A stretch of 54,321 nt of DNA from a virus: UHGV virus genome UHGV-0135730; one strand, given 5' to 3'. Positions 52,811 to 53,395 of the stretch are shown here, one piece after another. A model generated the notes under the pieces. That model was not told the DNA's origin. It made no database searches and saw only the letters and a list, made by a program, of their open reading frames with translations. The number at the start of each line of letters is the position of its first letter. Position 1 is the stretch's first letter. A program made the position numbers and the translations under genes.

Positions 52811-53395
52811 TCACCCCCGTTTAAAGCTCATCACACGCGGCACAAGCGCTTCTTTTGCTTTAGGCTTACGTTTGCCTTTCTTAGCTGGTTTTTTCTCTTC
52901 TTTCGGCTCCTCTGCCTGTTCAACTGCCTGTTCTGCTGCATCAGTCGCCTTTTCCGCCTGGTCTAATGCCTTCTCTACGACTTCAGCGGCCTGCATAGCT
53001 GCCAACTGTGCTTCGTTTGACTCATCCAGGATCGGGAAGAATGCGTCAAAGATGCGGCCCACCATGTAAGCATATGTCTCGTTTGCCGGATGAGTTGGAT
53101 CAGTGGTCGCAACGACGCCTACATCACTTAAAACATGGAATGTAGTGTGGGCGCATTCATGGACCAGCGTACCAAGCTCATTATCGAATACTGCGATCAC
53201 GTAGAAGTTACCGCCTTTCTCGCCAGTGCAAGTAAGCGTCAATCCTCCTGCCAGTTCAAAATCAGGTTCGATTGGGATCCCTGCCTTTTCGCAAAATTCA
53301 TAGAACATGTCGCGAGTCGGGCAGAAGAAAACTGTTGTATGCTCAAAGAGCGGGACTTTGAATTGAGGCAACTTAATGCCTTTACCCTTAGCCAT
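52811..53395 (-). CDS. HExxH-motif protein (putative zinc metallopeptidase-like) with acidic/Lys-rich tail
   Basis: VHECAHTTFH motif; C-terminal low-complexity EQAEKATDAAEQAVEQAEEPKEEKKPAKKGKRKPK. Confidence 0.5.
   Translation of the reverse strand: MAKGKGIKLPQFKVPLFEHTTVFFCPTRDMFYEFCEKAGIPIEPDFELAGGLTLTCTGEKGGNFYVIAVFDNELGTLVHECAHTTFHVLSDVGVVATTDPTHPANETYAYMVGRIFDAFFPILDESNEAQLAAMQAAEVVEKALDQAEKATDAAEQAVEQAEEPKEEKKPAKKGKRKPKAKEALVPRVMSFKRG

What the first reader, a model, noticed from the sequence alone, without database searches (positions are those of the whole stretch)
52811..53395. HExxH-motif protein with a low-complexity acidic/lysine-rich tail, immediately upstream of the peptide array
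The 194-aa protein has a VHECAHTTFH motif suggestive of a zincin-like metallopeptidase. Its stop codon is 2 nt from the first peptide gene, so the two are likely co-translated and may be functionally linked (for example a protease processing or regulating membrane peptides, or an anti-defence peptidase).
Basis: inference. Interest (0 to 1): 0.5.

Follow-up and report, generated by a model that had tools for sequence, protein, structure and literature searches.

The report
Small phage zinc-protease-like protein with tail
A temperate E. coli phage gene between the lysis and DNA-packaging genes encodes a small, strongly conserved protein with the hallmarks of a minimal zinc protease; its family (which includes the uncharacterised hkcC gene of phage P22) has no known function, and its link to the neighbouring mini-peptide genes is positional, not demonstrably functional.

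Summary
The ORF is real: 52811-53395 on the minus strand, 194 aa, with VHECAHTTFH and an Ala/Glu/Lys-rich tail. Its stop lies 2 nt before the ATG of a 22-aa hydrophobic peptide.

The window is an mEp021-like (mEpimmI) temperate coliphage. The gene lies between the Rz spanin gene and the terminase genes and is under strong purifying selection (pN/pS 0.08).

Residues 1-125 belong to a phage-only family of about 120-aa standalone proteins: PHROG 1365, at least 228 clusters at 50% identity, no Pfam family. H79, E80 and H83 are invariant, and E106 and Y110 nearly so. AlphaFold2 (pLDDT 93.7) puts HExxH and E106 on consecutive helices after a sheet-plus-helix subdomain, which is the gluzincin layout.

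Homologues include P22/HK620 HkcC and ST64T Orf129. All lie in late or structural operons, and most have neither tail nor peptide array.

Coupling to the array is conserved in 45 of 46 related loci, but the first peptide varies. The zincin-like reading is supported. A peptide-processing role is not. The actual function is unknown; a late-expressed conflict or host-takeover protease is my best guess.

The parts
52811..53395 (-). Full coding sequence (194 aa plus TGA stop) of the zincin-like protein. It is the homologue of mEp021_49, which is annotated as hypothetical.
   Evidence: ORF list and translation. It is 90-95% identical at the DNA level to mEp010, mEp021 and MagusPhagus. pN/pS is 0.08-0.15.
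53021..53395 (-). N-terminal catalytic-type domain (aa 1-125): a minimal zincin/gluzincin-like fold, family PHROG 1365.
   Evidence: PHROG 1365 match with E 8e-31 over aa 3-130. The profile search found 228 representative clusters, mostly proteins of about 120 aa. AlphaFold2 gave pLDDT 93.7 with elements E11-13, E21-25, H28-38, H44-48, E51-57, E63-69, H74-91 and H103-129.
53147..53161 (-). HExxH motif (H79-E80-C81-A82-H83): two predicted Zn ligands plus the catalytic base.
   Evidence: H79, E80 and H83 are invariant in 135 homologues that are 24-65% identical to the query. The motif lies in predicted helix 74-91.
53066..53083 (-). N105-E106-T107-Y108-A109-Y110 motif. E106 (53078-53080) is the predicted third Zn ligand, on the 'glutamate helix'.
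   Evidence: E106 and Y110 are conserved in at least 90% of the 135 homologues. The motif lies at the start of helix 103-129. The 23-residue spacing from the second His is inferred to be gluzincin-like.
52904..53020 (-). Acidic, Ala/Glu/Gln-rich helical linker (aa 126-164), variable in length between alleles (proteins of 180, 183, 184, 190 or 194 aa).
   Evidence: The full-length model continues the Glu helix to about aa 161. The indels fall in this segment. pN/pS is 0.145 for codons 126-145.
52814..52903 (-). Basic C-terminal end, predicted disordered (aa 165-194, ...KKPAKKGKRKPKAKEALVPRVMSFKRG).
   Evidence: pLDDT is below 50 for aa 165-191. The sequence is nearly invariant among mEpimmI alleles and pN/pS is 0.12. 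It stays almost identical in P0118, whose N-domain is only about 65% identical.
53404..53409 (-). Shine-Dalgarno-like AGAGGA, 8 nt upstream of the ATG.
   Evidence: Read directly from the sequence.
52740..52813 (-). Coupling junction and first micropeptide gene: TGA stop (52811-52813), TT, then ATG at 52806-52808 opening MVTFLLGLFIGMAAAVILLVGE (22 aa).
   Evidence: The same stop-TT-ATG junction is present in 45 of 46 related loci, with varying first peptides.
51890..52808 (-). Downstream array of 11 micro-ORFs (22-32 aa, one hydrophobic helix each) that leads into terS (51394-51879). This is context, not part of the protein.
   Evidence: None of the 10 peptides submitted has a PHROG match. terS, terL, portal and Rz were identified by PHROG matches.

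Best explanation
The gene encodes a soluble, late-expressed, two-part protein.

Residues 1-125 are a minimal zincin domain of the gluzincin type. H79 and H83 of HExxH, together with E106 on the next helix, would hold a Zn2+ ion, and E80 would act as the catalytic base. The domain belongs to an uncharacterised, phage-restricted family of standalone proteins of about 120 aa. That family is PHROG 1365 and includes P22/HK620 HkcC and ST64T/L Orf129.

Residues 126-194 are an addition specific to mEpimmI phages: a long acidic helix followed by a conserved Lys/Arg-rich disordered end.

The gene is transcribed with the late operon, between the spanin and terminase genes. Its translation is coupled to the first of 11 micropeptide genes.

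I infer that it is an active metallopeptidase that cleaves a host or phage protein in the cytoplasm late in infection. It would be an accessory, 'moron'-type function in phage-host or phage-phage conflict. It would not be a morphogenetic protease and not a dedicated processor of the neighbouring peptides.

Shown here: the gene is real and under selection, the motif is conserved, the predicted topology fits, the family has the stated distribution and genomic contexts, and the coupling junction is conserved. Inferred: metal binding, catalysis, the identity of the substrate and the biological role.
For: - Motif conservation: H79, E80, H83 and G51 are invariant, and G93, E106 and Y110 are at least 90% conserved, in 135 homologues only 24-65% identical to the query. 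Nearly all of the roughly 150 listed representatives keep HExxH.
- Predicted structure: pLDDT 93.7. [quoted passage not shown]
- Sequence-level hints: the PDB profile search gives its best, weak hits to metzincins (myroilysin, E 0.02). 33 of 135 members touch Pfam SprT-like. hhalign against an ArdC/PF18818 family profile aligns the preceding strand and HExxH in register (probability 64%, P 6.7e-5). Public annotations of two homologues read 'PolyVal metallopeptidase' and 'SprT-like'.
- Selection: pN/pS is 0.08 for the N-domain and 0.12 for the basic tail.
- Context is always a late or structural operon. Seen positions: between lysis genes and terS; after ejection gene 16 in P22 and HK620; next to terL, portal, adaptor or connector genes in divergent phages.
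- No sigma-70-like promoter was found on the gene's strand upstream.
- hkcC lies in the P22 'ant moron' together with sieA and immI (PMC2629481).
- From my own knowledge of the field, P22 assembly involves no proteolytic maturation, which argues against a morphogenetic role.
Against: - No Pfam, NCBIfam or PADLOC family is matched by the protein itself.
- The SprT-like hits cover only about 20 residues around HExxH and stay below Pfam's cut-off.
- hhalign against single SprT and ArdC sequences gives only 5-8% probability.
- I could not inspect model coordinates, so the convergence of H79, H83 and E106 on one site is unverified.
- Nothing here identifies a substrate, shows expression timing, or excludes packaging into virions. 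The mEp021 virion mass-spectrometry list is given only in a figure I could not read.
- The tail and the peptide array are both restricted to the mEpimmI clade, which leaves room for a clade-specific functional link.
Confidence: 0.5

Rival explanations
1. One reading: the protease works on or with the downstream membrane micropeptides. It would process, degrade or regulate them, and the tail-bearing zincin plus the array would form one functional module.
For: - The stop-TT-ATG coupling junction is conserved in 45 of 46 mEpimmI loci.
- The C-terminal tail and the array occur together, and only in the mEpimmI clade. This includes the divergent P0118 phage, where the end of the tail stays nearly identical while the N-domain has diverged.
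- The basic end of the tail could dock on anionic membrane lipids (inference only).
- Rare natural read-through fusions of the zincin to the first peptide exist, P0019 and P0020.
Against: - Most of the family consists of tail-less standalone proteins in phages that have no array.
- The peptide directly after the gene belongs to at least 8 different families, and array content varies from 3 to 13 ORFs. No fixed partner therefore exists.
- The peptides are only 22-32 aa, essentially one transmembrane helix with no obvious pro-segment.
- In P0113-type phages an HNH gene is inserted between the zincin gene and the array and the C-terminus is replaced, yet the gene persists.
- Tight coupling is normal for any neighbouring genes in a phage late operon.
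Confidence: 0.1
2. A virion-packaged, injected effector. It would be a standalone counterpart of the zincin domains of 'polyvalent' proteins and ArdC, delivered with the DNA to cleave host restriction or defence proteins, or to process co-injected proteins, at the very start of infection.
For: - The gene sits among late or structural genes, directly after ejection-protein gene 16 in P22 and HK620 and beside portal, adaptor or connector genes elsewhere.
- PMC5512222 argues that standalone versions of polyvalent-protein domains near structural genes act early in invasion.
- The termini are about twofold enriched in Lys/Arg across the family, and 21 of 135 members have at least 4 K/R in the last 10 residues. 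That could favour co-packaging with DNA (inference).
- One homologue is annotated 'PolyVal metallopeptidase'.
Against: - No hit to Pfam PF18818 was seen, and the hhalign similarity covers only 20 columns.
- The domain is never fused to other domains.
- From my own recollection, HkcC is not among the well-characterised P22 virion proteins.
- No mass-spectrometry evidence was obtainable here.
Confidence: 0.15
3. A DNA-associated protease linked to genome packaging. Like SPRTN or Wss1, it would be tethered to DNA by its basic tail and would strip bound or cross-linked proteins from phage DNA before the terminase packages it.
For: - The gene recurs just upstream of terS/terL in at least six different architectures with different terminase families.
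- Neighbours in divergent phages are DNA enzymes: an HTH plus Metallophos 'DNA repair exonuclease' (phrog_704) and an endonuclease VII/HNH-type protein.
- The mEpimmI proteins carry a Lys/Arg-rich tail, and many other members have short basic ends.
- There are weak motif-level hits to Pfam SprT-like.
Against: - The SprT-like hits are below threshold and restricted to the motif.
- hhalign against E. coli SprT gives 5% probability.
- Most members have no DNA-binding extension.
- The slot between lysis genes and terS is a general hot spot for accessory genes, so adjacency is weak evidence.
- The P22 and HK620 copies lie far from the terminase genes.
Confidence: 0.08
4. Not a peptidase. The HExxH...E site would bind metal for another purpose, such as a structural or regulatory role, a pseudo-protease, or a different chemistry such as the HExxH-type hydroxylases.
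For: - No significant structural or profile match to any characterised peptidase was found.
- There are weak sub-threshold NCBIfam hits to the 'aKG-HExxH-type peptide beta-hydroxylase' model (E 0.02-0.2).
Against: - The catalytic Glu of HExxH is invariant together with both His residues and the downstream Glu. A purely structural site would not need it.
- The predicted topology is the canonical zincin core.
- The hydroxylase hits cover about 25 residues around the motif at 11-15 bits, against a cut-off of 40.
Confidence: 0.1
5. A prophage-expressed abortive-infection or exclusion protease, analogous to the e14 Lit protease, that protects the lysogen against other phages.
For: - hkcC lies next to the sieA exclusion gene in the P22 ant moron.
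- The family occurs mainly in temperate phages and prophages.
- From my own knowledge, Lit is a prophage HExxH metalloprotease.
Against: - The gene is in sense orientation inside late operons, and no sigma-70-like promoter was found upstream.
- It has no PADLOC match and no Peptidase_U49 match.
- It is intact in all 7 sequenced mEp-type GenBank phages and in 44 of 45 IMG/VR loci of this type, which suits a phage-benefiting function better.
Confidence: 0.07

Closest known systems
PHROG 1365, with its named members HK620/P22 HkcC and ST64T/phage L Orf129 (all 'unknown function')
   Same: Direct sequence family. The PHROG match has E 8e-31 over aa 3-130. tblastn gives 45% identity to Orf129-type genes and 37% to hkcC. 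The HExxH and NETYxY motifs are shared, and all lie in late-operon accessory regions.
   Different: Those proteins are 121-139 aa with no tail. Orf129-type genes pair with a DUF2560-like small ORF (34 of 35 loci), which is absent here. The window's protein adds an acidic helix plus basic end of about 70 aa and is coupled to a micropeptide array.
Zincin-like metallopeptidase domains of polyvalent proteins and ArdC (Pfam PF18818, MPTase-PolyVal)
   Same: Both are found on mobile elements and phages. Both have a core of sheet, N-terminal helix, HExxH helix and Glu helix (PMC5512222). In R388 ArdC the downstream Glu candidates in YAFEELIAE lie about 22-24 residues after HEATH, a spacing similar to 23 here. 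hhalign aligns the preceding strand and HExxH in register (probability 64%).
   Different: There is no PF18818 hit. The similarity does not extend beyond 20 columns. This protein is standalone and small rather than part of a multidomain protein, and it has no ArdC-N domain.
SprT-like / SPRTN-Wss1 type zincins (Pfam PF10263)
   Same: The TLxHExxH signature is shared. 33 of 135 family members give weak PF10263 hits. A basic tail alongside a small zincin resembles DNA-tethered proteases (my analogy).
   Different: The hits are 12-15 bits over about 20 residues, with a best of 22.6 bits against a cut-off of 25.6, and the target itself gives no hit. hhalign against E. coli SprT gives 5% probability. 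The third ligand here is a Glu, and H87 is not conserved in the family, whereas SprT/SPRTN use a third His (from memory).
Minimal gluzincins such as 'minigluzincins' and the 3e11-type zincin-like proteins, and ImmA/IrrE/CapP (M78) regulators

Membership tests
Zincin / gluzincin superfamily (HExxH + Glu metallopeptidases) | HExxH motif on an alpha-helix, conserved across homologues | tested here: met
   H79, E80 and H83 are invariant in 135 homologues, and the motif lies in predicted helix 74-91.
Zincin / gluzincin superfamily (HExxH + Glu metallopeptidases) | Third metal ligand Glu on the next helix, roughly 20-30 residues downstream | tested here: met
   E106 is at least 90% conserved, lies 23 residues after H83 and sits at the start of helix 103-129. 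Its spatial proximity to the two His residues was not measured.
Zincin / gluzincin superfamily (HExxH + Glu metallopeptidases) | N-terminal subdomain: beta-sheet plus backing helix preceding the active-site helix | tested here: met
   The AlphaFold2 elements are E11-13, E21-25, H28-38, E51-57 and E63-69, followed by H74-91. This agrees with the core described in PMC5512222.
Zincin / gluzincin superfamily (HExxH + Glu metallopeptidases) | Significant 3D similarity to a solved zincin | tested here: inconclusive
Zincin / gluzincin superfamily (HExxH + Glu metallopeptidases) | Zn2+ binding and peptide-bond hydrolysis | not testable with these tools
   This needs purified protein, metal analysis and an E80A control.
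PHROG 1365 | Profile HMM match over the full domain | tested here: met
   E 8.1e-31, 107.6 bits, aa 3-130 against profile positions 5-123 of 127.
Pfam PF10263 SprT-like | Score at or above the gathering threshold (25.6 bits) | tested here: not met
   The target gives no hit at E up to 1. Family members score 12-15 bits over about 20 residues, with a best of 22.6 bits. hhalign against E. coli SprT gives 4.8% probability.
Pfam PF18818 MPTase-PolyVal / ArdC C-domain | Profile match to the domain | tested here: not met
   The target gives no Pfam hit, and PF18818 is not among the 25 families most often matched by the 135 members. hhalign against an 80-sequence PF18818 alignment gives 64% probability over 20 columns only.
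Pfam PF18818 MPTase-PolyVal / ArdC C-domain | Occurrence inside multidomain 'polyvalent' proteins or fused to ArdC-N | tested here: not met
   All true family members are standalone proteins of about 90-200 aa. The two giant hits match only 16-22 residues and are spurious.
ImmA/IrrE (M78) repressor-cleaving peptidases | Peptidase_M78 profile match and adjacency to a cognate repressor gene | tested here: not met
   There is no Pfam hit. The gene lies between the spanin and terminase genes, not in the immunity region.
Known anti-phage defence proteins (PADLOC), including Lit-like proteases | Match to a defence-system profile | tested here: not met
   No PADLOC family matches at E up to 1.

The most novel reading that the evidence does not exclude
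In mEpimmI phages the zincin may have been recruited into a new late-operon module together with the hypervariable array of single-helix micropeptides. The clade-specific tail (an acidic helix plus a basic, possibly membrane- or DNA-binding end) would bring the protease to the membrane, where the peptides insert. The cassette-like peptide repertoire would then act as interchangeable adaptors, decoys or substrates that tune what the protease cleaves, for example membrane-bound defence effectors or lysis regulators. This would be a combinatorial protease-plus-micropeptide system with no described counterpart.
Probability: 0.1. Interest if true: 0.75.

Novelty: new member of a known kind. Interest (0 to 1): 0.4.

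Why it matters
If the prediction holds, a whole family of tiny standalone metalloproteases is hiding in plain sight as 'hypothetical protein'. The family has at least 228 clusters at 50% identity. It is present in the textbook phage P22 as hkcC, in HK620, in ST64T-like Salmonella phages, and apparently in all mEpimmI phages examined, a group reported to be prevalent in the human gut.

The family always sits in late or structural operons, often in known 'moron' slots next to exclusion and immunity genes. That makes it a reasonable candidate for a phage-host or phage-phage conflict factor with a simple, testable catalytic mechanism, using E80A as the control. P22 and mEp021 give tractable genetics.

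The practical value is mostly an improved annotation and a clear experiment. It does not establish a new principle.

Tried and rejected
- **AFDB Foldseek.** The library was not available.
- **Direct family scans of the protein.** Pfam, NCBIfam and PADLOC gave only noise or nothing. The weak T3SSipB, YqzE, SctL and Ser-Ala-repeat hits all fall in the low-complexity tail and were rejected.
- **PDB sequence search with the single protein.** This gave only tail-driven coiled-coil noise.
- **Ten members picked for detailed Pfam scans.** The first set was badly chosen and gave no zincin family hits. A second set showed that the SprT-like hits are motif-only.
- **hhalign against single SprT and ArdC sequences.** Not significant. 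Building an ArdC family profile raised this only to a 20-column match.
- **Tail as a fused DUF2560-like partner.** Rejected: hhalign probability 0.7%.
- **Second copy or paralogue in the window.** None found.
- **Own promoter (moron-style expression).** The simple scan found no sigma-70-like site on the minus strand upstream. The terminator annotated in mEp021 between Rz and this gene was not reproduced by that scan.
- **Prohead protease idea.** The head module shows no canonical protease, so it is not excluded in mEpimmI. It is judged unlikely because P22-like phages carry the family yet, as far as I know, mature without proteolysis.
- **Virion mass-spectrometry evidence from the mEpimmI paper.** The protein list is only in a figure, and neither the text nor the supplements mention the gene.
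- **Literature searches.** Searches for hkcC, Orf129, SprT-like anti-defence and zincin counter-defence found only 'unknown function' statements.
- **Single-protein scans of viral contigs for three divergent members.** Nothing was found, and alignment A3 was too divergent for pattern search. Sub-alignments A4 and A5 worked.
- **PHROG scan of the micropeptides.** Ten of the 11 were submitted and none gave a hit.
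Full report
**1. Observation**

The ORF exists as described, on the minus strand at 52811-53395. It starts with ATG and encodes 194 aa. An AGAGGA Shine-Dalgarno-like motif lies 8 nt upstream of the ATG. VHECAHTTFH is residues 78-87.

The C-terminal 69 residues hold 15 Ala, 11 Glu and 12 Lys. The TGA stop is followed by TT and then the ATG of a 22-aa hydrophobic peptide, MVTFLLGLFIGMAAAVILLVGE. A GTG also overlaps the stop.

The gene is not a chance ORF. Among 31 distinct alleles from related phages, pN/pS is 0.08 for codons 1-125, 0.145 for codons 126-145 and 0.12 for the last 25 codons.

**2. Where it sits**

The window is essentially a whole temperate coliphage of the mEpimmI group. 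The 3-kb stretch around the gene (51300-54321) is 90-95% identical to mEp010, mEp021, mEp554 and MagusPhagus. This group is described in PMC11893012 as a Nus-dependent, non-lambdoid siphovirus group common in the human gut. The gene corresponds to mEp021_49, annotated 'hypothetical protein'.

PHROG matches fix the neighbourhood on the minus strand:
- Rz-like spanin, 53733-54221
- about 340 nt with no convincing ORF
- this gene
- about 930 nt holding 11 micro-ORFs
- terS, 51394-51879
- terL, 49913-51397
- portal, head morphogenesis, decoration and major head genes

A simple scan finds no sigma-70-like promoter on the gene's strand upstream. The simplest reading is therefore late-operon transcription.

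**3. What the protein is**

The protein itself matches no Pfam, NCBIfam or PADLOC family. It does match PHROG 1365 ('unknown function') with E 8e-31 over residues 3-130.

A profile search of 1.84 billion representative proteins found 228 clusters at E up to 1e-3. Almost all are standalone proteins of about 110-140 aa. In an alignment of 135 of them, 24-65% identical to the query, G51, H79, E80 and H83 are invariant. G93, E106 and Y110 are conserved in at least 90%.

The signature HExxH plus a Glu 23 residues later (N-E-T/A-Y/F-C/A-Y) is that of gluzincins.

AlphaFold2 with this alignment gives a confident model (pLDDT 93.7, pTM 0.87). Its elements are strands 11-13, 21-25, 51-57 and 63-69, helix 28-38, the HExxH helix 74-91 and a helix 103-129 that begins at E106. 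This is the zincin core as described by Iyer et al. [quoted passage not shown]

In the full-length model the Glu helix continues as one long helix to about residue 161. Residues 165-191 are disordered.

**4. Limits of the structural evidence**

Four zincins in the top 40 is more than I would expect by chance, but that is a rough judgement and not a computed statistic. I could not access coordinates to check that H79, H83 and E106 converge on one site.

At the sequence-profile level:
- The best PDB hits are weak metzincin matches (myroilysin, E 0.02).
- 33 of 135 members touch Pfam SprT-like. The matches cover about 20 residues around HExxH at 12-15 bits, with a best of 22.6 bits against a cut-off of 25.6.
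- hhalign against single E. coli SprT and R388 ArdC sequences gives 5% and 8% probability.
- hhalign against an 80-sequence ArdC/PF18818 profile gives 64% probability (P 6.7e-5) over 20 columns. It aligns the preceding strand and HExxH in register but not the Glu helix.

My conclusion is that this is a distinct, unnamed family within the zincin superfamily. It is not a member of SprT-like, PolyVal or M78.

**5. Relatives and their contexts**

tblastn against GenBank phages finds 82 records. Besides the mEp phages, these fall into two groups.

The first is the Orf129 type, at 43-47% identity. It is found in ST64T, phage L, epsilon34, g341c and ST104, between the lysis cassette and terS.

The second is hkcC, at 37% identity. 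It is found in HK620 and P22, directly after ejection-protein gene 16 in the 'ant moron', next to sieA and immI. [quoted passage not shown]

Other contexts:
- In a Kosakonia prophage the homologue lies after the lysis genes, next to a methyltransferase-like gene and upstream of terS.
- In 23 more divergent viral contigs it lies beside terL, a P22-type portal, an SU10-type adaptor, Ad3/Hc3 connector genes, a tail-fibre-like gene, or an HTH plus Metallophos protein of about 390 aa (phrog_704, 'DNA repair exonuclease').
- In the Orf129 group a DUF2560-like helical ORF of about 80 aa is adjacent in 34 of 35 loci, on either side. It is absent from all 45 mEpimmI loci and is not homologous to the tail.

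The common denominator is a late or structural operon, often an accessory-gene slot. It is not any single partner.

**6. The tail**

Long extensions after the domain are rare. About 6 of 135 representatives have more than 20 extra residues. The mEpimmI proteins come in lengths of 180, 183, 184, 190 and 194 aa, with the indels in the acidic helix.

The last 25 or so residues (KKGKRKPKAKEALVPRVMSFKRG) are almost invariant. They remain nearly identical in P0118, whose N-domain is only about 65% identical. This suggests that the 3' end of the gene is inherited together with the downstream array.

Across the whole family both termini are about twofold enriched in Lys/Arg. 21 of 135 members have at least 4 K/R in their last 10 residues.

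**7. Relation to the peptide array**

The window has 11 tightly spaced or overlapping micro-ORFs of 22-32 aa. Each is one hydrophobic helix, and each has an SD-like motif upstream. Ten of them were scanned against PHROGs and none matched.

In 46 mEpimmI-type loci there are 3-13 such ORFs, drawn from about 34 peptide families. They keep a colinear order with presence/absence variation. The distance from the zincin stop to terS ranges from 318 to 1154 nt.

The stop-TT-ATG junction after the zincin gene is kept in 45 of 46 loci, but the first peptide belongs to at least 8 different families. Translational coupling is therefore real and conserved, while a specific protease-peptide pairing is not.

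Homologues outside this clade have no array. In P0113-type phages an HNH gene is inserted right after the zincin gene and its C-terminus is replaced. The one point that keeps a link alive is that the tail and the array are both confined to the same clade.

**8. Mechanism I commit to**

I propose a cytoplasmic, late-expressed Zn metallopeptidase. H79, H83 and E106 would bind Zn, and E80 would activate water. It would cleave a host or phage protein as an accessory, conflict-type function. The mEpimmI tail would provide localisation or partner binding.

Confidence is about 0.75 that it is a zincin-type metalloenzyme and about 0.5 for the explanation as a whole. The substrate and the role are inferences.

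A morphogenetic role is unlikely because P22-like phages carry the family yet, as far as I know, assemble without proteolytic maturation. An ImmA-like role is excluded by position. A Lit-like defence role is disfavoured by the late-operon orientation and by the fact that the gene is intact in 44 of 45 IMG/VR loci of this type.

Alternatives that remain open at low probability:
- a virion-delivered effector
- a DNA-tethered, packaging-associated protease
- a peptide-array module
- a non-proteolytic metal site

**9. Novelty and verdict**

The zincin interpretation is supported by conservation and predicted topology but not confirmed by fold matching. The functional link to the peptides is not supported beyond translational coupling.

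The protein is a new, unnamed member family of a known kind: standalone phage zincin-like metallopeptidases. It is catalogued only as PHROG 1365, and two homologues from metagenomic Caudoviricetes assemblies are labelled 'PolyVal' and 'SprT-like' in nr.

Interest is moderate. It offers a better annotation for P22 hkcC and a core mEpimmI gene, and a clean experimental handle, but no demonstrated new biology.

Noticed in passing
window 51890-52808 (-); also L008-L052: There is an array of 11 tightly packed or overlapping micro-ORFs of 22-32 aa. Each is one hydrophobic helix and each has an SD-like motif. Across 46 related phages there are 3-13 such ORFs per locus, drawn from about 34 peptide families, in colinear order with cassette-like presence/absence variation. 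None of the 10 peptides scanned against PHROGs matched.
   Followed up: partly
L112 3362-3727 (+), which is NC_002371.2 13861-14226: The phage P22 RefSeq record has an intact ORF that is not annotated. It is 121 aa and identical to HK620 HkcC, with HECAH and NETYCY motifs, so it belongs to the same zincin-like family. It lies between sieA and orf59a/mnt in the ant moron.
   Followed up: yes
L053-L087, about 250-390 nt directly upstream of the homologue (for example L066 3755-3997); downstream in L054 (4376-4630) and L092: A DUF2560-like helical ORF of about 80 aa is directly adjacent to the Orf129-type zincin gene in 34 of 35 loci, on either side, often with a gap of only 3 nt. This may be a conserved two-gene unit. 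It is absent from the mEpimmI phages.
   Followed up: partly
L096 4387-5553, L097 4363-5334, L101 4340-5518, L103 4352-5566: In divergent phages the zincin gene is immediately followed by an ORF of about 320-400 aa with an N-terminal HTH. Weak to moderate Metallophos hits were seen in L097 and L103, and the L101 protein matches phrog_704 'DNA repair exonuclease'. In two of these loci (L096, L103) terL lies further downstream.
   Followed up: partly
L115 and L116 3563-4000: An HNH endonuclease gene is inserted directly after the zincin gene in P0113-type mEpimmI-like phages. The zincin C-terminus is replaced there by ...KYIIAGQSRYAMG, which looks like a remnant of the second micropeptide. Another HNH gene sits between the endolysin and Rz genes in L114-L116.
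   Followed up: no
proteins P0019 (209 aa) and P0020 (211 aa): These two variants continue past the normal stop. P0019 reads into the first transmembrane micropeptide (...SFKRG-VIMFTFLLGVFIG...). P0020 runs on in a different frame into an unrelated, non-hydrophobic extension. Each comes from a single contig and could be a frameshift, a sequencing error or a natural fusion.
   Followed up: no
window 53396-53732: About 340 nt between the Rz stop and the zincin start have no convincing ORF. The mEp021 record annotates a terminator in the equivalent place. A simple scan found no promoter or terminator on the minus strand here, and I did not search the stretch for RNA families.
   Followed up: no
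L114 3001-3534 compared with window 52811-53395: In the P0118 phage the N-domain is only about 65% identical to the window's protein, while the last 25 or so residues of the tail and several downstream micropeptides are nearly identical. This suggests a mosaic recombination joint inside the gene.
   Followed up: partly
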